40,155 nucleotides of DNA, taken from a virus. The stretch covers positions 1 to 40,155 of IMG/VR virus record IMGVR_UViG_3300010042_000007. The stretch is one strand, 5' to 3'. A program made the position numbers and the translations under genes. Under the pieces are notes generated by a model, which worked only from the letters and a program-made list of their open reading frames with translations, searched no databases and was not told where the DNA came from. This document shows, in pieces, positions 1 to 40,155 of the stretch; positions within the stretch are counted from its first letter, which is position 1; the number at the start of each line of letters is the position of its first letter.

Positions 1-123
1 GACCCATCCTCACCAAAGCGGTGAGTGATCCCAAGAAGTGCGATATGAAGTTCAAGTTCCTGCACTCGGTTCACCCGCGTGAGGATGAGGACCGTGACCC
101 GAGTAAGATGGATCCGGAGAACA
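1..123. repeat. terminal overlap copy 1 (identical to 40033-40155)
   Basis: Base-by-base comparison of both window ends. Confidence 0.95.
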
Positions 124-10915: not shown

Positions 10916-13900
10916 TGAATACCGACGAACTTGCTCCGCTTTTCGAGTCCCGTGAAACCCGCGTTGGCCGTTTGCCTGAAGAGGCTCGAGCGAAGCTGAC
11001 GACGGCAGCGGATTCGGCACGGTCCATGGGCCAGACGGACTTCGAAGATCAGCAATTCGTTTCCTTGTGGTTGTCACGTCGCACGGGTCTCCCGCGCAAG
11101 GACGTGCTCGCCAACTTTGGTAACATCTCCGGCCGGTTCTTTGGTGAAGGCGCGACGGCCGCCACCGCTTACGATAAGATTTCCAAGTCCTACCAAGGAG
11201 AGAAGACTGAAGCGCCCAAGACCGAGACGGAGAACCCCGAGCAGTTTTCTGGCACGGAGGGACTGGCGAAGCTTGGCAAGGGTGCCTTGATGGTGAACAC
11301 GGATCAATCGGTCCGTTCGGCCGCCGGTGGGTTTACAGGGTTTTCTCAGCAGATTCCCGCCGGTATCTACTCCCAGGCTGCAACGGTGATGGCATCGCCC
11401 GGGCGCGTTAAGTCTCCTTTTGAAAACCGGACATATCTCGAATTGAACCGAGAGCGATCGGAGCTTTTGAATCCCCCATTCCAGCCGAAGGATACGGAGG
11501 TTGTGCTGAACGATGGCCAGAAGGCACGGTTGGCAAAGATCGATTCGGACATGGCCACCCTCCGCAGTCGCACTGATGAAGAGAATCGGGTTCGCGTTAA
11601 GGAGTTCGCGGATTCGACCGGAAAGGACGTATCGGAGGAATACCGTCGTCTGTCTAAATTCTGGTATGAGTTGAGCGGTGAAGCCATGGGTAAGGCTGGG
11701 GTGAATCCCGACTTCCAGAAGTCTACGCTCGGTCAATTCATGGCCAGCGTGGGAAGTGTGCCGGCGACGGCCGCGCTTGCGGCGCTTGGTCCAGTCGGTG
11801 CGTTCGGCATGGAAAGTTCGTTCTTTGCTCAAGTTGAAGACGAAAGGCAGAAAGCCCAAGGCGAGGCGTATGATCCTGAAAAGGCGTTCGGTGCCAACTT
11901 GGCATCCGCTGGCCCCCAGATGGTTCTCGAGCGTGCATTCGGTATGGAGCGCCTGATGGACAAGGTCATTGGCGACATCCCGAAAATTGCCGGTAAGGTA
12001 TCGCTCGGTGACTTCGTGAAACAGTTCGTCCGCCAAGGACTGACTGCCGGTGTCGAGGAAGGCCTGACGGAGCCGGCGCAAAACTTCTGGAACGATTTCG
12101 TCGCATCACAGACGTATGACGAGAAGCGTGAACTCTTCACGGCCGCCGCGGCCAAGCAACGGTTGGTCGAGTCCGTGTCGGCATTCACCCTTGGCTTTTT
12201 CTTTGCCGGAGGCGTCACGGGCCTGCAGGCGGTGGACACGAACATGGAGGTCTCAAAGGGTGAAAAGTATCTGACGACGAAAGAAGGACAGGTCTTCACC
12301 CCTGCGGACTTTGCGGTTCTTCGTCAGGTGAAGACCGATGCGGACCTAATGGCGACGGCGCCCAATCCCGAAACGGGCCGCATCCTTGTCGCCGCGGCGA
12401 ATGGTGATGAGGCGGCGATGGCAAAATATAATGACGTGGTCCTTCGTGAGAAGTTCGTGTCTGCGGATGGCCTTGAGGTAGACGGCTGGAAGATCGGTAT
12501 GATCGACGGCGTCCCCGTGGTGGAGAACACCGAGCTCGGCACGTTCTCTCCGGTGGACGTAAACAACCCCGAGGAACGTCAATTTCTCGACACGCTCAAA
12601 CAGCGGGCGGTGGCCGAACAAGCGACGAAGGAAACCCTCGCCGGCCTACAGGAACGCTTCGGGGAAACCCTGAGTGTGGAGCGCCAAGCCATTCCGGAAA
12701 CCCTGATGGATCGAGTGAACAAAGGCCTGATGACCGAGGCACAAGCACGGAGCGCCTTGGACGTGGCGAAGCTGGTCAATGGACTGGCAAAGGAGACGAC
12801 GCTTGAAACCGCCCGCGTCCAGGGCGCTGCGGATGTACGGGAGACCGCGGACGGCGTGTTCCAGATGGTGGCAACGGTGGCACAGGCGGCCGATCCCACG
12901 GTTGCGATCGAGGAGGTTTCCGAGGCCTACATCAAAAAGGCGTATCGTGAGCAAAATCTCCGCCCCGAGGAACTGAACGAAGTGCGGGCAAAGTGGCATG
13001 CGGACAACCGAGAGGCAGACATGGCTTCGGGGCTGGACGGTGAAGACCTGAGCCGCGCAAACATCGAATGGTTCTCGAAGCGGGTGGTCGATTACGCGCT
13101 GGCCCGTCGCAAGGTCACGCTCCCGGGCGGATGGGGCAAATGGCTGCGGACCCTCGGTGAACGGCTGAAGACGGTCATCCGAGGCGCGGCAAAGATGAAG
13201 AAGCTCCTCCGTGAGGGGAAGCTGGATGCCGACTTGGAGGCGCTGATGAAGGGCGCACTGGGCGAGGTTTCGACTGATGAGGCAACGGCGGGGTTTGCCG
13301 AACGCCGCACTGGCCAACCCAATCAGATCCCGATGGGGGCACAGGATGGCGGCTTGATGAGCACGTTCAGCTTAAAGGAGGAAACACGGGAGGCCTTTAT
13401 GGAGCAGGTGAACCGCCAGCGCACAGGCCTGACTATTGATGCCCGTTCGAGGCAGGACTTTGTTGACGGAGCTCAAGGTTTAGAAACCGCGCCGATTGAG
13501 GTTTATGGTCGGCCACCCGAGCAAGTAGTGAAAAAGGAAAGGGATGGGGTTTCTCACTTTGCAGAATCGAAATACGAGGATGGCTACAAGGGACACCGCT
13601 TTGTGAGGTCAGTAGAAGGCAAGGGAGTGGCTTACCTCACCGTCCAAGAAATTGCCGGCAATCAGGATCGAGGCCGTCCTGTATCCTTTGTAATTCATAA
13701 AGCCTACACCAAGACCAGCAGTCGAAACAGCGGGCATATGCGGTCGCTGATAGCGGAAGCGGATGCGACGTTCCCTGCTGCGCTTGAGCCTGACTATCGA
13801 AACACGGAGGAAATGCTAGGATTGATGCGGTCCATGGCCGAGCAGTCGCCCACGTTCAGCCTAGCACCCGCCACGGACACCCCTGCGTTCAAAGCGTGGT

Positions 13901-16362
13901 TTGGTGACAGCAAGGTGGTGGACGCACAGGGCAATCCGCTGGTGGTTTATCATGGGACGCGAAGCCCAGAGTTCAGCGAGTTCCGTGCGCCTTCATTTTT
14001 CACTTCTGATCCAAACTCGGCGGGCAAGTATGCGGAAAAGTATGCTGAGCCGGTTGATGTGGTGGCAGAGGGTGGGCGCACAATTCCAGTTTATCTTTCA
14101 ATCAAGAACCCGAAACGCATCAGCCAATTTGAGATGATGGGGCTTGATGCCCAAGAAATCTCGAAGCTGAAGGACGCCGGTTTTGACGGCGCAATGTTCA
14201 CGCGCGACGATGGCGTGACCGTGGCGATGGCATTCAGCCCCACCCAAATAAAGAGCGCCATCGGCAACCGCGGCACGTTCGACCCGAACAACCCCGACAT
14301 CACCTTCGCCACGACGGGCATCCCCCAGAACGCGAAGCAATCGTTGCAGGCTCAGGCGATGGCGATTCAGGCAAAGCGCCTGGCGGCGGCCGGCCAACTC
14401 CTTTCCCGCCTGAACAGCGGCCAACCGTTGCCGGCGCGGGCCAAGGCGGTTCGCAAGTCCACAGAGGCGTCACTGATGGCAAAGCTATTCGTCCCGCTTA
14501 CATCCCGACTTCAGGCTATCAGCGAGAAGGCGAACCTCGGGCAACGTCTCCGCCGGCTGGACTTCGACATCGGGCGGGCGCTCAAGGCAGACTTCGAAGC
14601 GGTGAAGCCGTGGATGGTGGCGTTTGAAAACCTGCGCGAGCGGGACGCACGCATCCTCGACCTCGCGCTGAAGAACGGTGACACGAACTCACGGGACGCG
14701 GTTTTGAACGCTTACGGTATGGTTGGCACGTTCGCCCGCGTGGAACAGGTCCTTGCGGAAACGCGGGCCCGGGCAATCGCTGCGGGGTATGACGTGGGAG
14801 AGATTGAAAACTACTTCCCGCGCAAGGTGAATGACCTCGATGGCCTGCTCGTCCATTACTACGGACAGCCCGAAGCCGGCCGCATCGAGAAAGCACTTCA
14901 GGAAGCCTCCGTCAAAGCACAGGCACAGGGGCGGGTGTTGAGCCGTGAGGAACGCATTGAAATCGTGAACACGGTCCTGCGTGGCGGGCGCCGCGGTGAA
15001 TCCAAGCCGAGCAACTTGAAGTCCCGCAAGACCGACGTGGTGACGGTGGACGCGGATCAGTTCTATGCGGACAGCGTGGAAGCTCTGGTCTCCTACGTGG
15101 ATAGCCTGAATCAGGCGATCGAGAAGCGCCGGTTCTTCGGTAAGTTCGCGGTGCCGGTCGCCGGTGCTCCTGGCGCGGTCTCCTCACAGCTTGCGCTTGA
15201 AGCATCGATCGGATCCTACGTGGAAGATCTGATTGCGACGGGGGACATCAGCTATCAGCAACAGGCAGAGGTTCAGTCGATCCTCGAAGCACGGTTCCAG
15301 CGCGGGGTTCAAAACACGTTCGTGAAGAACTTCAAAACCCTGTCCTACATCACGACGATGGGACACATCACGTCTGCCATGTCACAAGTCACCGACGTGG
15401 CATTCAGTCTCTACGAGAACGGGGTTTTCGACACGATGGTTGCCGGCGGTCAGGCGGTGGCCCGGAAGTCCAAGATCACAATCACGGACCTCGGGTTAAC
15501 CCAAATTGCGGAGGAGTTCAGGGACGCCGGCAAGATGCACGCGGCACTTGATCGGACCTTCAAACTGGTGGGCATCCACTACCTCGACATGATCGGCAAG
15601 GAGACGCTGGTGAACGCGAAGTTCCGCCGGATGGAGCGCGAGGCCGCGGCGGGCAACCTGTCGGGCCGGAGCCGTGCCTTGATCGAGCGGGCCTTTGATC
15701 CATCCAAGGCCGCGCAAGTCATTACCGACTTGGCAGCAGGGAAGAAGACCGAGGACACGCTGTTCGCCGTTTACACGGTGCTGGCGGACTACCAGCCCCT
15801 CACGCAATCGGAGTATCCCGAGTATTACCTTCGCCACCCGAACGGGCGAATCTTCTACATGCTGAAGAGCTTCACGCTGAAACAATTTGATGCCTTCCGC
15901 CGTGAGGGTATCACGAAGATCATGAACGGGAATGCGGCGCAAAAGCTCGAGGGCGCCCGCAACCTGATTCACCTTGCCGGCCTGCTGTTCCTTGTCGGCT
16001 GTCCCGTCGACTGGCTGAAGGATTGGATCATGGGGCGTAAGCCGGTGATGGATGACATCATGGTCGACAACGTATTCAAGCTAGTGGGCGTCAACCGGTG
16101 GAGTCTTTACCAGTTCCGCGAACGAAAGAACCCCGTGGAGTCCGCGCTGATGCTGGTGGCCCCGCCCGCGCCGTTCCTGATTTATCCCCTTCAGGACATC
16201 GCCAAGTCCGCGGAGGAGATCAGCGAAGGTGACGACATCGATCCTTCGAAGTTCGAATCATGGAGAATGCTACCCTTCGTAGGTTCCCCTGTTTACTGGT
16301 GGCTCGGAGGCGGCAAAGATAAGATTGAAAAAAAAGAGCGTAAGGGCATTTCCACGCGCTGA
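10915..16362 (+). CDS. large internal virion / DNA-ejection protein (gp16-like) with embedded ADP-ribosyltransferase-like module
   Basis: 1815 aa with a TGATG start/stop overlap. Size and position match the podovirus ejectosome protein. Residues about 985-1130 read FKAWFGDSKVVDAQGNPLVVYHGTRSPEFSEF...FFTSDPNSAGKYA, which I recognise as the ART domain of phage polyvalent proteins. Confidence 0.7.
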   Translation: MNTDELAPLFESRETRVGRLPEEARAKLTTAADSARSMGQTDFEDQQFVSLWLSRRTGLPRKDVLANFGNISGRFFGEGATAATAYDKISKSYQGEKTEAPKTETENPEQFSGTEGLAKLGKGALMVNTDQSVRSAAGGFTGFSQQIPAGIYSQAATVMASPGRVKSPFENRTYLELNRERSELLNPPFQPKDTEVVLNDGQKARLAKIDSDMATLRSRTDEENRVRVKEFADSTGKDVSEEYRRLSKFWYELSGEAMGKAGVNPDFQKSTLGQFMASVGSVPATAALAALGPVGAFGMESSFFAQVEDERQKAQGEAYDPEKAFGANLASAGPQMVLERAFGMERLMDKVIGDIPKIAGKVSLGDFVKQFVRQGLTAGVEEGLTEPAQNFWNDFVASQTYDEKRELFTAAAAKQRLVESVSAFTLGFFFAGGVTGLQAVDTNMEVSKGEKYLTTKEGQVFTPADFAVLRQVKTDADLMATAPNPETGRILVAAANGDEAAMAKYNDVVLREKFVSADGLEVDGWKIGMIDGVPVVENTELGTFSPVDVNNPEERQFLDTLKQRAVAEQATKETLAGLQERFGETLSVERQAIPETLMDRVNKGLMTEAQARSALDVAKLVNGLAKETTLETARVQGAADVRETADGVFQMVATVAQAADPTVAIEEVSEAYIKKAYREQNLRPEELNEVRAKWHADNREADMASGLDGEDLSRANIEWFSKRVVDYALARRKVTLPGGWGKWLRTLGERLKTVIRGAAKMKKLLREGKLDADLEALMKGALGEVSTDEATAGFAERRTGQPNQIPMGAQDGGLMSTFSLKEETREAFMEQVNRQRTGLTIDARSRQDFVDGAQGLETAPIEVYGRPPEQVVKKERDGVSHFAESKYEDGYKGHRFVRSVEGKGVAYLTVQEIAGNQDRGRPVSFVIHKAYTKTSSRNSGHMRSLIAEADATFPAALEPDYRNTEEMLGLMRSMAEQSPTFSLAPATDTPAFKAWFGDSKVVDAQGNPLVVYHGTRSPEFSEFRAPSFFTSDPNSAGKYAEKYAEPVDVVAEGGRTIPVYLSIKNPKRISQFEMMGLDAQEISKLKDAGFDGAMFTRDDGVTVAMAFSPTQIKSAIGNRGTFDPNNPDITFATTGIPQNAKQSLQAQAMAIQAKRLAAAGQLLSRLNSGQPLPARAKAVRKSTEASLMAKLFVPLTSRLQAISEKANLGQRLRRLDFDIGRALKADFEAVKPWMVAFENLRERDARILDLALKNGDTNSRDAVLNAYGMVGTFARVEQVLAETRARAIAAGYDVGEIENYFPRKVNDLDGLLVHYYGQPEAGRIEKALQEASVKAQAQGRVLSREERIEIVNTVLRGGRRGESKPSNLKSRKTDVVTVDADQFYADSVEALVSYVDSLNQAIEKRRFFGKFAVPVAGAPGAVSSQLALEASIGSYVEDLIATGDISYQQQAEVQSILEARFQRGVQNTFVKNFKTLSYITTMGHITSAMSQVTDVAFSLYENGVFDTMVAGGQAVARKSKITITDLGLTQIAEEFRDAGKMHAALDRTFKLVGIHYLDMIGKETLVNAKFRRMEREAAAGNLSGRSRALIERAFDPSKAAQVITDLAAGKKTEDTLFAVYTVLADYQPLTQSEYPEYYLRHPNGRIFYMLKSFTLKQFDAFRREGITKIMNGNAAQKLEGARNLIHLAGLLFLVGCPVDWLKDWIMGRKPVMDDIMVDNVFKLVGVNRWSLYQFRERKNPVESALMLVAPPAPFLIYPLQDIAKSAEEISEGDDIDPSKFESWRMLPFVGSPVYWWLGGGKDKIEKKERKGISTR

Positions 16363-17136: not shown

Positions 17137-19080
17137 ATGAAAAAATCATTCAATATCTTCACGCTGTTCCTGCTCATGGCAGGCATGGCATTCGGGCAGA
17201 CGGCCAATGTTCAAAAGGGCTCGGGTTCGAATGACATCACGGCGGACTTAAACGTTGGCAGTGGACGGACGGTAACCGTTAAATCTGGTGGAACTCTTAA
17301 TGTGAGTTCTGGCGCACTAGGGTTATCCGATGGCCAAATTCCAGCGGTTAAGGTTAACGGGGTTCTTTCGTCTATTAAGACGGTATTTCAAACCGAGAAC
17401 GCCACGTCTTCTCTGATCGGTGAAGCAAATGGAAATATCTTGATTCTCGGTGATAGTATTACTGATGGGTTTGGGGCTACTTCTTATTCTAAATGCTACG
17501 CTTCGTTGGTTCAGAACTCTATCTGGAACGCGGTGCGTCGGGGGTTTAAGGATGAGCCTCCCTTTAACTATGCCTGCATTGCCCGTGGTCAGAATCTTAT
17601 TCAAGACACTGGAGTAACCACTAATGGGGCTGTCGGTCCTTATGGTATTTTCGGCGGTCAGGTAATTCTTGAGCCAGGCCAAAGTGTCTCGATCACAAGC
17701 AGAGAGATTACATATGTGCAGGCGTGGTATGATGCTTCTAACAGCACTGGGTCTCTTATTTTTTCCTTAAATGGTGTCGACTACCTTACAGCGACTCCTT
17801 CAGGAGCGGGTCTCCAAATTACGCCACTTACGGCCCTGCCCTCAACCACTCGAACGACTGATGTGGTAAGTATTCGTGCGTCTGGTGGAACCTTCCGGCT
17901 CTGTGGACTAAGTGCGGTTCATGCCTCGAATGCTTCTCCGGGTGTTTTCGTGTGCTCTCAGTCAGGAACTGCGATTCAGGACTATACAGGGGCTCAGGCA
18001 ATTTCAGATCTAACCACCTACATGCAATGGTTAGGAAGAACGGAGAACTCAATCATCTGCACGCTTGGATCTAATAGCATAACCAACCCAACTAAGGCCC
18101 TTTCTCCTTCTGCCATGGTTGCTGAAATGGCTAATTTTGTTAGCCTAATCAGGGTTGCTCTTCCTCATACTAAATTCTGGTTTACCGTTCCACCTCGGGC
18201 TAATTATGCGTCATGGCCTATTGTTCTGGATTTCACATATGACCAGTATGTATCGGCAATAATTGAGTTTTGTGCAGCCAACAACCATGGGTGTTTGCGT
18301 GGAGATATGCTCGACACTCTTCATGATAATACTGCTGATGGTCTGCATCCCAACGATTACGGTCATCGCATGTGGGCAGAGATGATTACTCGATCCTTAC
18401 AGATTCCTTGTAATGGGTATAAGCGGACTATCGGACCCGCAAACGTAGACATGGGTAACCTTCTCGTAAATGGAACTGCGAGTTTTCTTAATTCTACGGA
18501 AACTCCGCTGGCTATAGTTTCAGGGAGTATTCCTCTAGTGAAAATCGTTAATACCAACGGTGGTTTAGACGCTAAACGATTTCAAGTGCTTGGGCTAGCC
18601 AGTGGAGTTAACCGAAGCATATATTTTAGCTTCCTCAAGGACGATGAATCGGCGTCAAACGCTGCGTTTGAGTTAACCAGCAATGGCGCAACCCCAACGG
18701 GCGCAAACTTCTATGCGCGCGCCAACTTTGTCGGGGGTATTGGCGGGCTTTCGGGTCTGATAAAAGGTAATGGGACCACTTTCCCCAGTGCAGCAGTAGC
18801 CGGAACCGACTATGTTATCCCAGCAGGAAACGTTGCGACAGCAACGGCGCTAGCAACGCCGCGCACGATCAACGGCGTGAGCTTTGACGGCACGGGGAAT
18901 GTTACGGTTCCGTCTGTTAAGTTGAATCAATACACCGTGGCAGGCTTACCAACGGGCGCACAGGGCGATGTTGCTTTGGTTACCGATGCAGCGACCAGTT
19001 TGCGCGGGTCGGCCCCTTCAGGTGGCGGCTCCACTAAGTGGCCGGTCTTCCACAACGGAACGGCTTGGGTCTGCTATTAA
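17137..19080 (+). CDS. tail fibre/spike with SGNH (GDSL) esterase domain
   Basis: 647 aa. SGNH blocks are present: ILILGDSITDGFG (I), TLGSNSI (III) and DGLHPNDYGH (V). A C-terminal fibre repeat is present (TPRTINGVSFDGTGNVTV). The N-terminus looks like a Sec signal peptide. The 5-prime two-thirds is low-GC. Confidence 0.7.
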   Translation: MKKSFNIFTLFLLMAGMAFGQTANVQKGSGSNDITADLNVGSGRTVTVKSGGTLNVSSGALGLSDGQIPAVKVNGVLSSIKTVFQTENATSSLIGEANGNILILGDSITDGFGATSYSKCYASLVQNSIWNAVRRGFKDEPPFNYACIARGQNLIQDTGVTTNGAVGPYGIFGGQVILEPGQSVSITSREITYVQAWYDASNSTGSLIFSLNGVDYLTATPSGAGLQITPLTALPSTTRTTDVVSIRASGGTFRLCGLSAVHASNASPGVFVCSQSGTAIQDYTGAQAISDLTTYMQWLGRTENSIICTLGSNSITNPTKALSPSAMVAEMANFVSLIRVALPHTKFWFTVPPRANYASWPIVLDFTYDQYVSAIIEFCAANNHGCLRGDMLDTLHDNTADGLHPNDYGHRMWAEMITRSLQIPCNGYKRTIGPANVDMGNLLVNGTASFLNSTETPLAIVSGSIPLVKIVNTNGGLDAKRFQVLGLASGVNRSIYFSFLKDDESASNAAFELTSNGATPTGANFYARANFVGGIGGLSGLIKGNGTTFPSAAVAGTDYVIPAGNVATATALATPRTINGVSFDGTGNVTVPSVKLNQYTVAGLPTGAQGDVALVTDAATSLRGSAPSGGGSTKWPVFHNGTAWVCY

Positions 19081-32007: not shown

Positions 32008-32162
32008 GAGGTTCGATTTAAGGCCCGCAAGAGGATGGCGGTGATTAAGCATTGGAAGCAGAGGTAAAGTGCGGTCCAATCCTCGTTGACGGCGGCAATT
32101 CCAAAGTGAGCGCCGGCCAAGAATGATAAGACCCATGTAAATGCGGTGAGGAGGGTTTTCAT
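32004..32162 (-). CDS. small two-TM membrane protein (52 aa)
   Basis: Not in the ORF track. ATG 32162 forms an ATGA overlap with the upstream stop. Translation MKTLLTAFTWVLSFLAGAHFGIAAVNEDWTALYLCFQCLITAILLRALNRTS has two hydrophobic helices. Confidence 0.45.
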   Translation of the reverse strand: MKTLLTAFTWVLSFLAGAHFGIAAVNEDWTALYLCFQCLITAILLRALNRTS

Positions 32163-33058
32163 CGGACGGAGGTTTTAGCTTCCTTCCAGTGGCGGACGCC
32201 AGGGAGGGACTGACCCTCGGGGAGCGTCTTCAACTGGGCTTTGATGGCGGCGGTGTTCGGCTGAAGGAGTACCATCCCCGGGAATGCCTCGTAAAGTTTC
32301 TGGATGTCCGTGACCTCGAACTTCACCTCCGAGCGGAGGGCGAGACCGTCCAGCTTGGGAGCGGTAGCCAAGGACACGGCGGTGTTTTGCGCAGCCATGT
32401 CCTTCTGTGCCTGGGCGCGTTCACGATCCGACTTCTCCTGTGCCAGCTTGCGGGCTTCTTCAGCGGCAGCGGCTTCTTTCTCGGCCTGAGCACGGCGTTC
32501 ATCGGCTTCCTTCTGAAGCTGTGCCTGACGTTCGGCGGAACGGGCGCGATTGGCCTTGGCCTCGAGCTCCGCGGCTTCACGGGCGGCCTTCTCCTGTGCC
32601 TCGCGGGCTTTGCGGGCCTCGGCTTCAGCGGCCTCACGGGCAAGGCGCTCTTTCTCTTCGGCCTCCTTGCGAATACGCTCCTGTTCCTCGAAGGCCTTGC
32701 GGCGCGTCTCTTCTTCGATCCGGCGCTGTTCAGCCTGGAAGGTGGCAATCAGGCCGCCGATGCGGGTCTCTTCCGCTTGAAGCTCTTTGACCAGTTCAGC
32801 GGCGACCGCATCAACACGCTTCCCGAGGTCCAGAACCGGCGCCTTCACAGACGCACGGGTGGATTCGATCAGGCGGGTGAAGGTTTTGATTTCCTTCAGG
32901 ATTTCGCCGGCCGCCTGGGCAGAGGCAGCACCGGCGATGGAAGTGCCGCGGCGGGCACGGACGAGGAGGCCGTCACGATGGACGATAGCGGCTTCCGATG
33001 GGGTGATCTTGGCGGCATCAAGGCCGGCAAGGACGAGCAGTTCGGTTGTGGTGGACAT
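32159..33058 (-). CDS. coiled-coil protein
   Basis: 299 aa with a central 110-aa Glu/Arg/Lys/Ala-rich coiled coil and a C-terminal beta-like domain (EVKFEVTDIQKLYEAFPGMVLL). Confidence 0.6.
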   Translation of the reverse strand: MSTTTELLVLAGLDAAKITPSEAAIVHRDGLLVRARRGTSIAGAASAQAAGEILKEIKTFTRLIESTRASVKAPVLDLGKRVDAVAAELVKELQAEETRIGGLIATFQAEQRRIEEETRRKAFEEQERIRKEAEEKERLAREAAEAEARKAREAQEKAAREAAELEAKANRARSAERQAQLQKEADERRAQAEKEAAAAEEARKLAQEKSDRERAQAQKDMAAQNTAVSLATAPKLDGLALRSEVKFEVTDIQKLYEAFPGMVLLQPNTAAIKAQLKTLPEGQSLPGVRHWKEAKTSVR

Positions 33059-33061
33059 GGC

Positions 33062-33688
<627 letters not shown>

Positions 33689-33698
33689 TGGAGGGAAA

Positions 33699-33953
33699 TT
33701 ATTTGGAGCGGAGCGCCCATTCGCGGGCACGGGCAATGGCCTTGGAGAGTTCGTCGTCGTTGAGGGCAGAGGCGCCGATACCGCCGAGGAGGTGGAACAG
33801 CATGGAGCTCGCTTCGGATTCGGTGAGGCGGGCGGCAAGCGTGGTGGAGACTTGTTCTTCGATTTTGAGATTTGCGGGCATGGGAGTGGAGGGATGGGTG
33901 AGGAGGTGGCCGGCGCGGATCGCTTCAGCGAACGGCTGGAACAGGGAGGACAT
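33699..33953 (-). CDS. hypothetical early protein
   Basis: 84-aa ORF, second gene of the leftward operon. Confidence 0.5.
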   Translation of the reverse strand: MSSLFQPFAEAIRAGHLLTHPSTPMPANLKIEEQVSTTLAARLTESEASSMLFHLLGGIGASALNDDELSKAIARAREWALRSK

Positions 33954-33959
33954 GGCCGT

Positions 33960-34244
33960 TCAGTCGGTCGCTTTGGCGATGGCGGCGCGGGCTGACATGA
34001 TGGGTTGGGATGCCCCATTGATACCGCATGATGTGAGTAGCTCCTCACATGATTTGAGCGCGGCCAGCAACTCAGGCGCGGCGGCAATCAGGCGGGCATC
34101 TTGATCGGACGGGCAGAATGGGGCCTCAACCGCCGTCATGACGTGCTCGCTGTGATTAGAACGGCAAGCGAGTAGCTGACGGCCTTCCCATTGCCATGGG
34201 CCGGATGTGTGCGCTGCGATAGCAGGCGCGGAAGGATTGGACAT
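33960..34244 (-). CDS. hypothetical early protein
   Basis: I prefer the internal Met 34244 (MSNPSAPAIAAHTSGPWQWEG...DARLIAAAPELLAALKSCEELL). 94 aa, first gene of the leftward operon. Confidence 0.55.
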   Translation of the reverse strand: MSNPSAPAIAAHTSGPWQWEGRQLLACRSNHSEHVMTAVEAPFCPSDQDARLIAAAPELLAALKSCEELLTSCGINGASQPIMSARAAIAKATD

Positions 34245-34411
34245 AGGTTGTGACTGGAATCGTGGTTGAAACTGACATCGGACCGAGTTCGTGACGCTCG
34301 CCGATGGAGAAGGAGATGGGGTCAAGCGCAGGCGTCTGCAAGGATAAAGCGCAGGCGGTTGAAAAATAGTTTCTACTTCCCTCTGAAAACAGGCCGTGCA
34401 TGGTGGCTGAC
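34245..34411. promoter_or_regulatory. divergent control region (early leftward promoter and promoter of the tRNA-like gene expected here)
   Basis: Non-coding gap between divergent units. It contains an AT-rich patch TTGAAAAATAGTTTCTACTT (34359-34378), with TTGAAA as a possible -35. I could not find a convincing -10. Confidence 0.35.
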
Positions 34412-34494
34412 GCGGCATTACCTCAGATGGTTAGAGGGGAGTTTGGTGAGCAATCACGGGGCTCAAGTCGGGGGTTCGAGTCCCTCATGCTGCA
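34412..34494 (+). ncRNA. tRNA-like RNA with alanine identity marks and no anticodon loop
   Basis: 7-bp acceptor stem GCGGCAU/AUGCUGC with a G3:U70 wobble. U8. D arm CCUC-AGAUGGUUA-GAGG. G26. 26-nt helix capped by GCAA (34439-34464). Variable loop AAGUC. T arm GGGGG-UUCGAGU-CCCUC. Discriminator A. No CCA encoded. Confidence 0.6.
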
Positions 34495-34541
34495 ACTTTT
34501 TCCTTGAACCCGCGCACGGGGTTTGCAGAGTGATCCCATCC

Positions 34542-34589
34542 GAGCGGGTGGAACTGCAAGGAGACTTGCACTAGACCCGCTCACTTTTT
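34542..34589 (+). terminator. intrinsic terminator 1 downstream of the tRNA-like gene
   Basis: GAGCGGGT (34542-49) pairs with ACCCGCTC (34575-82). The inner stem TGCAAG/CTTGCA is capped by GAGA. TTTTT follows at 34585-89. Confidence 0.6.
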
Positions 34590-34590
34590 A

Positions 34591-34627
34591 GCCCGTCGAA
34601 TTCTCCACCCATTCGGCGGGCTTTTTT
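34591..34627 (+). terminator. intrinsic terminator 2
   Basis: 11-bp stem GCCCGTCGAAT/ATTCGGCGGGC with a 9-nt loop, followed by TTTTTT (34622-27). Confidence 0.75.
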
Positions 34628-34906
34628 GTGTCACCACAAACCGGCCCGCGTAGGGTTCCGGCCACGTATCAGCTCTCAAGGGCACCGGACGCGACAAGAC
34701 GCGAACGCATCAGAGGCTAGGACTCGGCAAAAGTCCTCACATTCCAACTTCGGGAGATTCGAGGGTGTGGGGCATGGAAGGACACCAAACTTAGGACAGG
34801 GGCAGACGCCGATCCGAACACCGCAAGGAGCCAAAGCGACCGAAAGAGAACCATTGCGAGCCCCGCCATGGAATCTCCCATCCTTGGACGGGGCAGACTT
34901 TATCCC

Positions 34907-35146
34907 ATGAGATCATTTAAAATATCACGTAAGAAGAAAAAGAAGCTGACACCGGAACAAGAGAACGCGTGGAGAGGCAGGATGGTGGAATCCATCAACG
35001 CCGCACACGGGTATTCGATCGCTTCTCTTCAGGCAATGGAGACAACGAAGCTGGTGGCACTGAGGAACCGCATAGGCTCTCACATCGCCCCAGCCAGGAC
35101 CGGAAAGCTGCCGGTCAACGTCCACACGGCAAAACTGATGGGGTAA
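34907..35146 (+). CDS. hypothetical protein
   Basis: I prefer the internal ATG 34907 (MRSFKISRKKKKKLTPEQ...) over track start 34868. 79 aa, first ORF after the terminators. Confidence 0.45.
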   Translation: MRSFKISRKKKKKLTPEQENAWRGRMVESINAAHGYSIASLQAMETTKLVALRNRIGSHIAPARTGKLPVNVHTAKLMG

Positions 35147-35206
35147 AACCCCGCCAGAGCTTCAGAGACAACTTTCCCCGCCAGATAAACCAACCAATCC
35201 AGTCAC

Positions 35207-35452
35207 ATGAAAAACAACACAAAGAACATGGTCATCGCTCTGATGACTCCGACAGTCGAAACGATGCGTAAAGCTGGCATCTCAAGGATGACCATCGCAG
35301 TCCCCAACGTGGTTATCCAAATGCAGGATGGTGAGGTCATCGATTTCGAGGTGAAAGACCCCGTAAAGGACACGCTCGAAACCTTGATCGCATGGTCGGC
35401 AAACGAGCTTGGTCACAAGAACGCCACGGATTTGATCGAACGCCTAAAATAA
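35207..35452 (+). CDS. hypothetical protein
   Basis: 81-aa ORF. Confidence 0.55.
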   Translation: MKNNTKNMVIALMTPTVETMRKAGISRMTIAVPNVVIQMQDGEVIDFEVKDPVKDTLETLIAWSANELGHKNATDLIERLK

Positions 35453-35460
35453 ACCCCGCC

Positions 35461-35772
35461 ATGAAGAAGAAAAATCCATACGGTCAGAGCAAGGGCGCCA
35501 CAAAAGGGTTGGAGGCCATCAAGACCTGCAACAGAATCGTCCTCGCCCAGATGAAGATCACCGAGCGCAAAGCAACGTGGACCAAGCGTTACACCAGGGC
35601 GATTGCCCGAGCCATCAAGAGCGGCGACTTCAAGGACATCATCGAGTCCTTGGCAGACCGCGCAATCGGCTTGGTGCTTCTCCGTGAGAAGGGGTATGCC
35701 CCAGAAGGCGCGTCCCTCGAATACACGGTTGCCCACGTTCCTCGGATGGCTCCACGGCACAGCGTAAAATAG
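35461..35772 (+). CDS. hypothetical protein
   Basis: I prefer ATG 35461 (MKKKNPYGQSKG...), 8 nt after the upstream stop. 103 aa. Confidence 0.55.
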   Translation: MKKKNPYGQSKGATKGLEAIKTCNRIVLAQMKITERKATWTKRYTRAIARAIKSGDFKDIIESLADRAIGLVLLREKGYAPEGASLEYTVAHVPRMAPRHSVK

Positions 35773-35901
35773 GACTCTCCCCCTTCTCCCTTTCCTCCGA
35801 TCCTTCAGAGGGAAGGTCCCTGCCCTAGTAAAGGGAGACGACTAGGGAGAAACAGCGTTTATCGTTGCCCTCCTTTCTCCCCTTCTCCCCTGTGTTTCCC
35901 C

Positions 35902-36264
35902 ATGATCACCCTCAACGAATCCACCATCAAGCGGACGTGGGCCACCTGGCACAAGGACCAGAACGTAAACAGAGAGCAGGCAAAGCGCCTGGCCGATGAC
36001 GTGAAGGCGACACAGCAGAAGCTCTCACTGGAAGCGATCGAGGCGCGGTTTGGGCGCGAGGCCATCACCTCGGGGCTCTACAAGACCCGCATGGAGCTCC
36101 GCAAGCAGGGGAACTACCGCTGGTGGCTGGTCTGGCATGAGGATGATGCTAAGCAGGGCCGTGGAACCGCGCTGGCGGTGTTCACCATGCCGGTGACGCG
36201 CATCGACAAGTTCCGGCTGGTCTGTGAATTCCACTGGGCAACGCTGGCGGTTGGGCAAAACTGA
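35902..36264 (+). CDS. hypothetical protein
   Basis: 120-aa ORF preceded by a pyrimidine-rich leader. Confidence 0.55.
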   Translation: MITLNESTIKRTWATWHKDQNVNREQAKRLADDVKATQQKLSLEAIEARFGREAITSGLYKTRMELRKQGNYRWWLVWHEDDAKQGRGTALAVFTMPVTRIDKFRLVCEFHWATLAVGQN

Positions 36265-39446: not shown

Positions 39447-40155
39447 ATGAAAACCCCGCGCATCAAAGGCACGCAGCACAACGAGGCTCTGGAGATCATC
39501 CAGCGATATGATCGGCTGAAGGCTGACCGCGGGACATGGGACACGCTCTGGCAACAGATTGCCGACTACATCCAGCCCCGAAAGAGCGCCATCAACACGC
39601 GCAAGACCGAGGGTGTGGATGGTTACACCGACAACCTGTTCAACCTCACGGCAGTGCGGGCCAACCAAATCCTTGCCAGTGGTCAGATGGATTACCTGTT
39701 TAGCGGAAACTGGTTCTCCTACAGCCCGCCCTCTGAAATCACTGATGACGATGCCAAGACGTATTATCAGACGTGCACCGAGACGGCGAAGCGGGAACTC
39801 CTCCGGTCAAACTGGAACCTCGAGGTGCATGAGATGCTCCTGGACCGCGGTTGCTTTGGAACGGCCGCCCTCCTCCTTGAGGAAGGCAAGCGCGGTGGTC
39901 TGGTGTTCCACAAGTTCGACGTCGGCACGTTCGCCATTGTCGAAGACCACGAAGGCCGCGTTGATACGTTGATCCGTGAGTTCGAGCTCACTGCCCGCCA
40001 AGCAAAGCAGAAGTTCGGAGCGGACAACCTTGGACCCATCCTCACCAAAGCGGTGAGTGATCCCAAGAAGTGCGATATGAAGTTCAAGTTCCTGCACTCG
40101 GTTCACCCGCGTGAGGATGAGGACCGTGACCCGAGTAAGATGGATCCGGAGAACA
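39447..40155 (+). CDS. portal / head-to-tail connector protein, N-terminal part (runs off the window; continues at base 124 of the window via the terminal overlap)
   Basis: I translated by hand from ATG 39447 to the window end and found no stop. It is absent from the ORF track because it has no stop in the window. The last 123 nt duplicate 1-123. Confidence 0.85.
   Translation, partial: MKTPRIKGTQHNEALEIIQRYDRLKADRGTWDTLWQQIADYIQPRKSAINTRKTEGVDGYTDNLFNLTAVRANQILASGQMDYLFSGNWFSYSPPSEITDDDAKTYYQTCTETAKRELLRSNWNLEVHEMLLDRGCFGTAALLLEEGKRGGLVFHKFDVGTFAIVEDHEGRVDTLIREFELTARQAKQKFGADNLGPILTKAVSDPKKCDMKFKFLHSVHPREDEDRDPSKMDPEN
40033..40155. repeat. terminal overlap copy 2 (identical to 1-123)
   Basis: Base-by-base comparison of both window ends. 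Confidence 0.95.

What the first reader, a model, noticed from the sequence alone, without database searches (positions are those of the whole stretch)
34412..34494. Anticodon-less tRNA mimic with alanine identity elements
The 83-nt segment has every conserved element of the tRNA L-shape. The acceptor stem is 7 bp (g34412-t34418 with a34487-c34493). U8 is present. The 4-bp D stem carries the loop AGAUGGUUA (A14, G15, G18, G19, A21). G26 is present. The 5-nt variable loop AAGUC supplies A44, G46 and C48, which can pair with G15. The T arm supplies G53, T54, Psi55, C56, A58 and C61. The 26 nt where the 17-nt anticodon arm should be (34439-34464) instead form a 10-bp helix with one G-G mismatch, capped by a GCAA tetraloop: GAGUUU(G)GUGA-GCAA-UCAC(G)GGGCUC. 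I tried every register and found no 5-bp stem with a 7-nt loop. The acceptor stem has a G3:U70 wobble (g34414:t34491) and discriminator A73. These are the main AlaRS determinants, and AlaRS ignores the anticodon, as with tmRNA and minihelices. The RNA could therefore be processed, CCA-tailed and alanylated but cannot decode. Possible roles, all speculative: a mini-tmRNA-like ribosome ligand, an Ala donor for a non-ribosomal aminoacyl transferase, an AlaRS/EF-Tu/SmpB sink, or an RNase P-dependent processing handle for the late transcript.
Basis: partly seen in the sequence, partly recalled or inferred. Interest (0 to 1): 0.85.

Follow-up and report, generated by a model that had tools for sequence, protein, structure and literature searches.

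The report
Phage tRNA look-alike without an anticodon
This phage carries an intact tRNA-shaped RNA gene whose anticodon arm is replaced by a long capped hairpin, so it cannot read codons; similar genes recur in many uncultured phages and appear to be an undescribed kind of non-decoding tRNA mimic.

Summary
Window 34412-34494 (+) is a full tRNA cloverleaf (Rfam tRNA 43.5 bits, gathering score 29). Its 26-nt anticodon arm folds as a 10-bp helix with a G·G mismatch and a GCAA loop. No register gives a 5-bp stem with a 7-nt loop.

It is not a one-off. Pattern scans found at least 22 distinct phage or metagenome tRNA-like genes with the same unusual D arm (CCUC/GAGG). All have arms of 22-50 nt in place of 17 nt. 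Their acceptor and T stems covary strongly (96% paired). Three sub-lineages, one of them the window with L038, keep homologous long arms through compensatory changes. Simple pseudogene decay is therefore unlikely.

Close relatives of this phage lack the element. It sits in a variable, gene-free region between the early and late operons, followed by a structured trailer and a terminator.

The alanine reading is only partly supported. This copy has G3·U70, A73 and G4-C69, but C2-G71 and U20. G3·U70 occurs in 3 of 22 members and is lost in the phage lineage of the nearest homologue. A different subgroup has the histidine-type G-1:C73 (7 of 7 members with C73).

Best reading: a functional tRNA mimic that is processed like a tRNA but cannot decode. 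Its role is unknown: a trans-acting decoy or carrier, or an RNA-processing module.

The parts
34412..34494 (+). tRNA-like RNA gene, 83 nt, CCA not encoded: a full cloverleaf with the anticodon arm replaced by a long hairpin
   Evidence: ARAGORN and Rfam RF00005 give the same coordinates. The minimum-free-energy fold is the cloverleaf, z -3.3. The family model R1 scores 66.9 bits.
34412..34418 (+). Acceptor stem, 5' strand GCGGCAU (G3 = 34414)
   Evidence: Pairs with 34487-34493. All 7 acceptor pairs covary across 20 family members and 99.3% of cells are paired.
34421..34437 (+). D arm CCUC-AGAUGGUUA-GAGG, with the unusual C10:G25 and C11:G24 pairs, plus G18 and G19
   Evidence: Read from the sequence. 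This D arm is the shared signature of the family.
34439..34464 (+). Extended 'anticodon' arm: a 10-bp helix (3 U·G pairs and one G·G mismatch) capped by GCAA at 34450-34453, with no 7-nt loop
   Evidence: It is homologous to the arm of L038, with two compensatory pair changes and a conserved UUU/GGG wobble run.
34465..34469 (+). Variable loop AAGUC (A44, G46, C48)
   Evidence: Read from the sequence. AAGUC is shared by 12 of the 20 parsed members.
34470..34486 (+). T arm GGGGG-UUCGAGU-CCCUC
   Evidence: The T stem covaries and 100% of its cells are paired.
34487..34494 (+). Acceptor stem, 3' strand AUGCUGC (U70 = 34491), and discriminator A73 (34494)
34495..34628 (+). Structured 3' trailer, probably co-transcribed: hairpins at 34507-34523 and 34542-34582, then hairpin 34590-34622 followed by a U run (an intrinsic terminator with the C-rich loop UCUCCACCC)
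   Evidence: RNAfold -53 kcal/mol, z -4.1. Only weak, sub-threshold Rfam resemblances to ar14 and sX13, E 0.06-0.16. The simple terminator scan found nothing here, probably because its loop limit is 3-8 nt and this loop is 9 nt.
33954..34867 (.). Gene-free region of about 900 nt at the switch between the minus-strand early/replication genes and the plus-strand late genes. It is an accessory region not shared with relatives.
   Evidence: Gene calls on the identical contig L014. tblastn synteny with L001, L015 and L016. No DNA similarity to relatives.

Best explanation
This is an intact, expressed, non-decoding tRNA-shaped RNA. It belongs to a sporadically distributed and so far undescribed set of phage tRNA-like genes. 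In these genes the acceptor stem, D arm, variable loop and T arm keep every tRNA feature, while the anticodon arm is replaced by a longer hairpin.

Proposed working; the only parts shown are the structure and its conservation in related copies:
1. It is transcribed as a short unit that ends at the hairpin/U-run terminator at 34590-34628 (inferred).
2. RNase P removes the 5' leader, the 3' trailer is removed, and CCA is added, because CCA is not encoded (inferred from the intact 7-bp acceptor stem, T arm and D/T-loop elbow, which are what these enzymes read).
3. It folds into the L shape. The arm has 10 bp and a GNRA cap where a tRNA has 5 bp and a 7-nt loop, so it is too long and has no anticodon. 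It therefore cannot decode on the ribosome (inferred from the confirmed structure).
4. It therefore acts through its 'top half', as a tRNA mimic for factors that read the acceptor stem, T arm and elbow.

This copy could be charged by AlaRS (G3·U70, A73, G4-C69). Another subgroup carries the His-type G-1:C73. Some members may therefore be chargeable without an anticodon.

The biological role is not established. It could be a decoy or sink for a host factor or defence that targets tRNA, or an aminoacyl carrier.
For: - Cloverleaf and scores.
- No canonical anticodon arm in any register.
- Family: 11 distinct extended members among 28 IMG/VR loci with this D arm; more from metagenomes; one from a MAG; L091; L181.
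- Arms are 22-50 nt and fold as hairpins beyond chance (mean z -2.9; 15 of 22 have z below -2). Their caps vary: GCAA, UUCG, CCAG, AAU and 7-nt loops.
- Core covariation: 96.3% of cells paired against 65% in shuffles; covariation score 0.81 against 0.17; all 7 acceptor pairs change on both sides.
- The long arm is old, in three sub-lineages:
  - Window and L038 share the lower helix and have 2 compensatory pairs, although 5 of 7 acceptor pairs differ.
  - L020, L036 and L091 share a two-tier arm with covarying helices.
  - L032 and L037 differ at 1 of 82 nt, although their TerL proteins are 56% identical and their upstream DNA is unrelated.
- G-1 accompanies C73 in 7 of 7 members and in 0 of 15 others (Fisher p 5.9e-6). 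This is the HisRS determinant that works on microhelices (PMC9976931).
- Sigma-70-like promoters can be read directly upstream of solitary members L025, L032, L036 and L038.
- Many members lie inside phage tRNA arrays, e.g. L062, L048, L059, L031, L067 and L017.
Against: - No expression, processing or charging data exist for any member.
- The element is absent from all TerL relatives examined (at most 88% identity), so it is dispensable for this phage type.
- G3·U70 is not conserved.
- No partner protein is conserved next to the elements.
- The family was collected with patterns that required an intact D arm and T loop. Decay elsewhere in the molecule would therefore not have been seen. Only the acceptor stems and the arms were free to vary.
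- Aligning different tRNA isoacceptors also gives stem covariation. The core covariation therefore shows 'tRNA-shaped and maintained', not orthology.
- No sigma-70 consensus promoter was found upstream in the window.
Confidence: 0.55

Rival explanations
1. It is a cis-acting processing or stability module. The tRNA shape exists only so that RNase P and the 3' tRNA-processing nuclease (RNase Z or RNase E) cut the primary transcript at defined points. This would release or stabilise the co-transcribed downstream RNA, which in the window is the structured trailer 34495-34628. The anticodon arm is blunted so that the excised piece cannot interfere with translation.
For: - In L041, the nearest homologue, the element sits exactly between a TTGACT-17-TAAACT promoter and a conserved structured leader of the scaffold/capsid operon. 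Relatives at 92-97% portal identity (L179, L189) have the same promoter and leader without the element.
- L032 and L037 conserve the element together with about 150 nt of downstream structured RNA that has a compensatory helix.
- The window element is followed after 12 nt by a strongly structured trailer.
- Solitary members are on the same strand as nearby late genes.
- Only the parts that RNase P reads are conserved.
Against: - Many members lie inside tRNA arrays, where no extra processing signal is needed.
- In the window a terminator separates the element from the late genes.
- This reading does not explain G-1:C73 in all 7 members with C73.
- It does not explain the conservation of arm sequence (L032/L037 differ at 1 of 82 nt) or the maintained long helices.
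- An ordinary tRNA would serve equally well as a processing signal.
Confidence: 0.2
2. It is a dead tRNA gene. A phage tRNA, for example tRNA-Val(CAC), would have suffered a 9-nt slippage or template-switch insertion in its anticodon arm. Such an event creates a perfect hairpin in one step, and the gene would now be drifting towards loss.
For: - ARAGORN in intron mode recovers tRNA-Val(CAC) after removing GGUGAGCAA.
- GAG occurs twice, and GAGCA-AUCACGG-GGCUC gives 4 of 5 pairs.
- The inserted GGUGA is nearly the reverse complement of UCAC(G).
- The element is absent from relatives and lies in a variable region.
- The equivalent accessory slot in the L041 lineage holds tRNA-likes with different anticodon lesions: extended in L041 and L181, shortened to a 4-6-nt loop in L184 and L185.
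- Phage tRNA arrays contain other damaged-looking tRNAs.
Against: - All four other helices are intact and every tertiary-interaction nucleotide is present.
- The long arm is shared, with two compensatory changes, with L038, whose acceptor and T stems have diverged. The insertion is therefore old, yet the rest has not decayed.
- Two other sub-lineages also maintain their long arms.
- Acceptor stems, which the search patterns did not constrain, are 99% paired.
Confidence: 0.15
3. The RNA is alanylated by AlaRS. It then acts as an alanine-charged non-decoding tRNA: a mini-tmRNA-like ribosome ligand, an Ala donor for a transferase, or a sink for AlaRS or EF-Tu.
For: - G3·U70, A73 and G4-C69 are present.
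- G3·U70 is the major AlaRS determinant and works in minihelices (PMC9976931).
- L038, which has the homologous arm, also has G3·U70 and A73 although 5 of the other 6 acceptor pairs differ.
- Several long-arm tRNA-likes with a canonical D arm carry GGGG...-type Ala acceptor stems.
Against: - C2-G71 and U20 depart from the bacterial Ala identity set.
- G3·U70 is present in only 3 of 22 members.
- The orthologue pair L184 (G3·U70) and L185 (A3-U70), and L181 (C3-G70), show that it is not maintained.
- There are no tmRNA features.
- No aminoacyl-transferase or similar domain turned up among the roughly 40 window ORFs scanned against Pfam.
Confidence: 0.15
4. It is a genuine decoding tRNA whose extra 9 nt are a short intron removed after transcription.
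For: - ARAGORN with introns of 0-30 nt calls tRNA-Val(CAC).
- The arm can be drawn as a relaxed helix-bulge form: GAGUU-UGGU-GAGCA-AUCA-CGG-GGCUC (own reading).
Against: - The intron position 33/34 is non-canonical.
- The bulge-helix-bulge drawing would give anticodon GUG with G33 instead of U33.
- Homologues such as L038, L059 and L033 have continuous helices with no bulges, so no single excision restores a 5-bp stem and 7-nt loop.
- The gene content is that of a bacterial phage: a DnaA C-terminal HTH domain, Dam, and a T7-type portal.
- Known bacterial tRNA introns are group I introns of more than 200 nt (own knowledge).
Confidence: 0.03

Closest known systems
YrlA, the bacterial and phage Y RNAs with a tRNA-like domain (Chen et al. 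2014, PMC4201824)
   Same: A non-coding RNA with a genuine tRNA-like acceptor stem, D arm and T arm, in which a long helix stands where the anticodon arm would be. It is found in bacteria and phages. The M. smegmatis YrlA is cut by RNase P and receives CCA.
   Different: - YrlA is circularly permuted relative to tRNA. Its 5' and 3' ends lie in the long Ro60-binding helix, and its 'acceptor' stem is closed by a loop.
- YrlA is encoded next to rsr (Ro60).
- Here the ends are at the acceptor stem, as in a tRNA.
- No Rfam family other than tRNA reaches its gathering score.
- No TROVE/Ro60 domain was seen among the roughly 40 window ORFs scanned.
tRNA-like domain of tmRNA
   Same: A tRNA mimic that lacks an anticodon, has G3·U70, is charged by AlaRS and is processed by RNase P (PMC9976931 and PMC3985003 abstract; own knowledge).
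   Different: - tmRNA has a reduced D arm, pseudoknots and a tag reading frame, and it needs SmpB.
- This RNA is 83 nt with a full D arm and a closed hairpin.
- ARAGORN and Rfam find no tmRNA.
Eukaryotic-virus and cellular tRNA-like processing modules: the MHV68 tRNA-miRNA units and MALAT1 mascRNA (own knowledge; mascRNA is named in a search result)
   Same: Non-decoding, non-aminoacylated tRNA shapes used to recruit RNase P or RNase Z, so that a linked RNA is cut out. This resembles the arrangement of a tRNA-like element followed by a structured RNA seen in the window and in L032/L037.
   Different: They belong to different domains of life and use different enzymes. mascRNA has a shortened anticodon arm, not a lengthened one. 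No processing data exist here.
Engineered 'tRNA scaffold' for recombinant RNA expression (Ponchon and Dardel; PMC3753655, found)
   Same: A tRNA in which the anticodon stem-loop is replaced by an arbitrary helix. In E. coli it is still processed and accumulates stably. This shows that the architecture is compatible with the tRNA maturation machinery.
   Different: It is artificial. It shows feasibility only and says nothing about natural function.
Phage tRNA genes and tRNA pseudogenes in tRNA arrays
   Same: They share the same D-arm and T-arm sequences as ordinary phage tRNAs, and many family members lie inside such arrays.
   Different: Ordinary phage tRNAs have a 17-nt anticodon arm and a readable anticodon. 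Pseudogenes are expected to lose stem pairing generally, which is not seen here.

Membership tests
Canonical tRNA (Rfam RF00005) | Score at or above the family gathering score, with a 7-bp acceptor stem, D arm and T arm | tested here: met
   43.5 bits against a gathering score of 29. All three arms align with high posterior probability.
Canonical tRNA (Rfam RF00005) | 5-bp anticodon stem closing a 7-nt loop with U33 and a readable anticodon | tested here: not met
   The arm is 26 nt. The best register gives 4 of 5 pairs. The covariance model skips 20 nt. ARAGORN's calls need mismatched stems or a 9-nt 'intron'.
tmRNA | tRNA-like domain together with pseudoknots and a tag-peptide reading frame | tested here: not met
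   ARAGORN -m finds no tmRNA. There is no Rfam tmRNA hit even at E up to 5 in 34100-34800.
YrlA / bacterial Y RNA | Permuted tRNA-like domain with the RNA ends in a Ro60-binding helix, and a gene next to rsr | tested here: not met
   The topology is that of a tRNA, with the ends at the acceptor stem. No Rfam family other than tRNA matches. No TROVE domain in the scanned ORFs. The definition is from PMC4201824.
Bacterial tRNA-Ala identity set (A73, G2-C71, G3·U70, G4-C69, G20; PMC9976931) | G3·U70 wobble pair and A73 | tested here: met
   g34414:t34491 and a34494.
Bacterial tRNA-Ala identity set | G2-C71 and G20 | tested here: not met
   The window has C2-G71 and U20 (identity set).
Bacterial tRNA-Ala identity set | Actual aminoacylation by AlaRS | not testable with these tools
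   This needs an in vitro charging assay or acid-urea Northern blots.
Intron-containing tRNA (group I or bulge-helix-bulge) | A self-splicing group I intron core, or a bulge-helix-bulge motif at the exon-intron junctions that homologues conserve | tested here: not met
   The insert is 9 nt. Only a relaxed one-bulge drawing is possible, and it would give G33. Homologous arms (L038, L059, L033) are continuous helices.
tRNA-gene fragment at a phage attachment site (attP) | An adjacent integrase, and sequence identity to the 3' part of a host tRNA gene | tested here: not met
   No integrase domain was found among the roughly 40 ORFs scanned against Pfam or the 10 scanned against PHROGs, which include the neighbouring ORFs. 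In IMG/VR the 3' 22-mer matches only an unrelated phage tRNA-Arg. The one genome-collection scan used a family pattern, not the 3' half, so the host side was only weakly tested.
Proposed family: phage long-arm tRNA-like RNAs (this work) | tRNA core with a CCUC/GAGG-type D stem, a 5-nt variable loop (mostly AAGUC), a GGUUCGANUCC T loop, and an 'anticodon' arm longer than 17 nt that folds as a hairpin | tested here: met
   The window matches the defining pattern. It scores 66.9 bits on model R1. Its arm is homologous to that of L038. Caveats: R1 does not separate this family from ordinary tRNAs, and the window's core sequence was used to build it.

The most novel reading that the evidence does not exclude
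Phages carry a widespread, unrecognised class of 'anticodon-less' tRNAs. These keep exactly the identity elements that synthetases can read without an anticodon: G3·U70/A73 for AlaRS and G-1:C73 for HisRS. They would be charged but shut out of decoding. During infection they would act as decoys or sinks for host factors or defences that target tRNA, or as aminoacyl carriers. Their hypervariable arm would reflect an arms race.
Probability: 0.2. Interest if true: 0.85.

Novelty: new variant of a known kind. Interest (0 to 1): 0.62.

Why it matters
Phage tRNA genes are usually explained by codon usage or, more recently, by escape from host nucleases that cut tRNA. A recurrent, maintained class of phage tRNAs that cannot decode does not fit either view. 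It points to a function that depends only on the tRNA body: processing, charging, or binding by a tRNA-directed factor.

These genes are currently mis-called by tRNA finders as Thr, Val, Arg, Leu, Phe or '???', or are left unannotated. They therefore distort phage tRNA inventories.

If the Ala-type and His-type acceptor ends mean that the RNAs are charged, this would be a natural case of aminoacyl-tRNA mimics kept out of translation, and it could be tested directly with standard tRNA biochemistry.

Tried and rejected
- **Relatives of this phage, found by TerL.** I examined 12 IMG/VR loci and Logan contigs at 88% and 73% identity. None has a tRNA-like element or any DNA similarity to 34100-34700. 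Direct orthologue covariation was therefore impossible.
- **L014.** This ENA contig is identical to the window and is not independent evidence.
- **INPHARED phage records.** No match to the region, to the element, or to the L041 and L032 modules.
- **Exact 26-nt arm in IMG/VR.** No match.
- **Sub-family pattern for the window/L038 arm.** It found only L038 and L041.
- **Family covariance model R1.** It is not specific, because it scores ordinary tRNAs equally well. It was useful only for locating tRNA-like genes.
- **Variable loop plus T arm motif (AAGUCGUUGGUUCGAGUCCAAC).** It is generic in phage tRNAs and is not a family marker.
- **Conserved neighbouring protein.** None was found. The adjacent 341-aa ORF has no informative Pfam or PDB match.
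- **Other readings.** The tmRNA, YrlA, short-intron and attP readings were each rejected on tested features (see the membership table).
- **Shared GCAAUCAC 8-mer with the Ala-type L172 arm.** About 0.4 such matches are expected by chance, so I did not use it.
- **Literature searches**. They found no description of this class.
Full report
**1.

ARAGORN and the Rfam tRNA model both place a tRNA at 34412-34494 on the + strand.

- RNAfold returns the cloverleaf as the minimum-free-energy and centroid structure: -34.5 kcal/mol, z -3.3, with no shuffle out of 200 folding as well.
- The 26-nt arm folds as GAGUUU(G)GUGA-GCAA-UCAC(G)GGGCUC. On its own it has z -3.5.
- The Rfam model scores 43.5 bits against a gathering score of 29. 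It can only do so by skipping 20 nt where 11 model positions belong.
- Listing all registers gives no 5-bp stem with a 7-nt loop; the best has 4 of 5 pairs.
- ARAGORN's default call, tRNA-Thr(GGU), uses mismatched stems and an invented variable arm. With short introns allowed it instead calls tRNA-Val(CAC) with a 9-nt 'intron' at position 33/34. No tmRNA is found.

**2. Context**

The window is a complete, circularly permuted phage genome of about 40 kb. Its ends overlap by 123 nt, and an ENA contig is identical over the overlapping 15.5 kb.

- The plus-strand genes are structural: T7-type portal, capsid, TerL, and a 1815-aa virion protein.
- The minus-strand genes from about 21 to 34 kb are for replication: primase/helicase, Dda-like helicase, exonucleases, methyltransferases, and a protein with a DnaA C-terminal domain.
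- I found no integrase, RNA ligase, Ro60 or aminoacyl-transferase domain among the roughly 40 ORFs scanned against Pfam and the 10 scanned against PHROGs.

The element lies in a gene-free stretch of about 900 nt (33954-34867) where the two transcription directions diverge. Twelve nucleotides after A73 begins a strongly structured 134-nt trailer (-53 kcal/mol, z -4.1). It ends in a 12-bp hairpin followed by U6. CCA is not encoded.

Synteny with relatives shows that 33062-35900 is specific to this phage. Relatives go directly from the homologue of 32159-33058 to the homologue of 35902-36264, with different fillers, for example an HNH endonuclease and 1.1 kb of non-coding DNA in L016. None of 14 TerL relatives (33-88% identity) has a tRNA-like gene or any DNA similarity here.

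**3. It is one of a family**

A pattern built from the unusual D arm and the T loop found two IMG/VR loci whose anticodon arm is also replaced by a longer, unrelated hairpin. A relaxed pattern gave 28 IMG/VR loci. About 12 of these are normal-length tRNAs with readable anticodons. The other 16 (11 distinct sequences) have extended middles. The metagenome scan added more.

The scan of 185,579 species genomes gave four matches. Only one, L048, is a true family member. It lies on a 24.8-kb MAG contig inside a tRNA cluster. This is consistent with the family being essentially phage-borne.

With L091 and L181 there are 22 distinct members. All of the extra length is in the anticodon arm, which measures 22-50 nt. 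The arms fold as hairpins well beyond chance: mean z -2.9, and 15 of 22 have z below -2. Their sequences and caps differ: GCAA, UUCG, CCAG, AAU, and 7-nt loops such as UUAAAGC.

On a core alignment, in which I replaced each arm by its three closing pairs and GAAA, 96.3% of cells are paired against 65% in shuffles. The covariation score is 0.81 against 0.17, and every acceptor pair changes on both sides. There are two caveats. First, the patterns fixed the D arm and T loop. Second, different tRNA isoacceptors would also covary. This result therefore shows 'maintained tRNA shape', not orthology.

**4. The long arm is maintained, not a fresh lesion**

Three sub-lineages show this.

- The window and L038 have homologous arms. 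Reading pairs from the base, window then L038:
  - pair 1: G-C and G-C
  - pair 2: A-U and A-U
  - pair 3: G-C and U-G
  - pairs 4-6: U-G in both
  - pair 7: G·G and G-C
  - pair 8: G-C and G-C
  - pair 9: U-A and A-U
  - pair 10: G-C and G-C

  That is two compensatory changes and a conserved run of wobble pairs. Over the same divergence, 5 of 7 acceptor pairs and 3 of 5 T-stem pairs differ.
- L020, L036 and L091 share a two-tier arm. The outer and inner helices covary around a conserved internal loop (CGC or CGA opposite AAC).
- L032 and L037 come from phages whose TerL proteins are 56% identical and whose upstream DNA is unrelated. Their elements differ at 1 of 82 nt, a change that turns a G·U pair into G-C.

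This argues against the rival that each copy is a young pseudogene made by one slippage or template-switch event. That mechanism may still be how the arms first arose. Examples are the GAG...GAG repeat in the window, the duplicated GCGGAU in L018, and the duplication in L045.

**5. Identity elements**

G3·U70 with A73 occurs in 3 of 22 members: the window, L038 and L031. Against the published bacterial Ala set (A73, G2-C71, G3·U70, G4-C69, G20; PMC9976931), the window has three elements and lacks two (C2-G71 and U20).

I tested conservation in the lineage of L038/L041, using graded portal relatives at 72-97% identity.

- The slot between the portal and scaffold genes is an accessory hotspot.
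- L041 has the 84-nt long-arm element inside the late leader.
- L181 has a different 106-nt tRNA-like with a 50-nt arm and C3-G70.
- L184 and L185 have an orthologous 71-nt tRNA-like whose anticodon loop is cut down to 4-6 nt. L184 has G3·U70 and L185 has A3-U70.
- L185 also has a PhdYeFM/YoeB pair in this slot.
- L179, L180, L183, L187 and L189 have no tRNA-like gene.

G3·U70 is therefore not maintained, and alanylation is not a family function.

Unexpectedly, all seven members with C73 have G at -1, and none of the other 15 does (Fisher p 5.9e-6). L032 and L037 are near-duplicates, so this amounts to about six independent cases. G-1:C73 is the major bacterial HisRS determinant and is sufficient in microhelices. 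This is the best hint that at least some members are built to be charged without an anticodon. It could also simply reflect descent from tRNA-His genes.

**6. How it probably works**

Shown: a complete, maintained tRNA body with a long capped helix in place of the anticodon stem-loop.

Inferred from what is established about tRNA maturation:
- The 7-bp acceptor stem, T arm and D/T-loop elbow are what RNase P, the 3' processing nucleases and the CCA-adding enzyme read.
- tRNAs whose anticodon arm has been replaced by another helix are processed and stable in E. coli (the tRNA scaffold, PMC3753655).
- A tRNA-like Y RNA is cut by RNase P and receives CCA (PMC4201824).

The RNA should therefore mature like a tRNA. 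With five extra base pairs and a GNRA cap it cannot present an anticodon at the right distance from the acceptor end, so it should not decode.

What it does beyond that is open. I favour a trans-acting tRNA mimic for three reasons: members sit in tRNA arrays, the acceptor-end signatures exist, and arm sequence is conserved. I give this about 0.55.

The main rival, at about 0.2, is a cis-acting processing module. It is supported by the placement of L041 between promoter and leader, by the conserved downstream structured RNA in L032/L037, and by the window's trailer.

Pseudogene decay keeps about 0.15. The elements are sporadic and dispensable, and the same slot holds several kinds of anticodon lesion.

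**7. Breadth**

A control scan with the canonical D arm (GCUCAG.UGG.UAGAGC) found 56 further distinct phage tRNA-likes with aberrant middles. Six have textbook GGGG... Ala-type acceptor stems with G3·U70 and A73.

A cultured phage, Vibrio phage nt-1, has unannotated tRNA-like genes with 45-70-nt inserts in the anticodon arm.

Disabled or replaced anticodon arms are thus a broader feature of phage tRNA-like genes, and the window element is one clean example.

**8. Comparison and novelty**

Functionally, the closest known analogues are YrlA Y RNAs, the tmRNA tRNA-like domain, and the tRNA-like processing modules of eukaryotic viruses and cells. The element fails tested defining features of each: permutation and Ro60 linkage; tag frame and pseudoknots; domain of life and arm length. 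It also fails the anticodon-arm criterion of a true tRNA.

Nine full-text searches found no description of non-permuted, long-arm, anticodon-less tRNA-like genes in phages.

I rate it a new variant of a known kind (tRNA mimicry). Interest is 0.62: the class is real and recurrent and can be tested with standard biochemistry, but there is no functional evidence yet.

Noticed in passing
window 34495-34628 (+): A structured RNA of about 134 nt begins right after the tRNA-like gene. It has three hairpins, and the last is a terminator with the C-rich loop UCUCCACCC. RNAfold gives z -4.1. The only database resemblances are weak and below threshold (alphaproteobacterial ar14 and Xanthomonas sX13, E 0.06-0.16). 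It may be a phage small RNA with an anti-Shine-Dalgarno-like loop.
   Followed up: partly
window 10915-16362 (+): The 1815-aa virion protein carries an ADP-ribosyltransferase domain of the 'polyvalent protein' type (PF18760, E 2.4e-19) at residues 1003-1122. This suggests an enzyme injected into the host along with the phage DNA.
   Followed up: no
window 1-123 and 40033-40155: The window's two ends overlap by 123 nt. An identical ENA contig runs across the junction. The window is therefore a complete circular or terminally redundant phage genome of about 40.0 kb.
   Followed up: yes
window 17137-19080 (+): There is a low-GC island (0.49 against about 0.59 for the genome). It holds a 647-aa protein with a GDSL lipase/esterase domain, probably a recently exchanged tail-spike or receptor-modifying module.
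   Followed up: no
L032 1923-2075 (+) and the homologous stretch of L037 (about 5150-5000, - strand): About 150 nt of conserved non-coding RNA lies directly downstream of the long-arm tRNA-like gene. It has a closing helix (GACAAGUG/CACUUGUC) and a compensatory inner helix (GCGAAGU/ACUUCGC against AGGGAGU/ACUCCCU). No Rfam family matches.
   Followed up: partly
L118, L120, L134, L158 (IMG/VR loci; coordinates): These are tRNA-Ile(UAU)-like genes whose long variable arm is itself a second anticodon-stem-loop look-alike, with the loop CUGAUAA (a GAU anticodon).
   Followed up: no
L060 7016-7161, 9040-9126, 9172-9254 (- strand): In one phage tRNA array, a tRNA-Phe(GAA) and a tRNA-Lys(UUU) have perfect anticodon arms but carry hairpin insertions in the D loop. 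The same array has a 146-nt tRNA with an insert of about 72 nt in the anticodon loop.
   Followed up: no
L041, L179-L189 (slot between the P22-type portal and scaffold genes): This slot is an accessory hotspot. Depending on the relative it holds a long-arm tRNA-like (L041, L181), a tRNA-like with a shortened 4-6-nt anticodon loop (L184, L185), a PhdYeFM/YoeB toxin-antitoxin pair (L185), or nothing. The late promoter and the structured leader stay conserved throughout.
   Followed up: partly
L190 (Vibrio phage nt-1, HQ317393.2 98855-103948, reverse complement), locus positions about 1950-2090, 2355-2476 and 2494-2601: A cultured T4-like vibriophage has three unannotated tRNA-like genes with 45-70-nt inserts in the anticodon arm. 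They lie next to an annotated-looking tRNA-Met. This makes it a possible experimental system.
   Followed up: partly
L007 10607-10685 (+): ARAGORN calls a 79-nt tRNA-Arg(ACG) in a TerL relative. Neither the Rfam tRNA model nor model R1 supports it, and the fold is not a cloverleaf. It is probably a false positive.
   Followed up: partly
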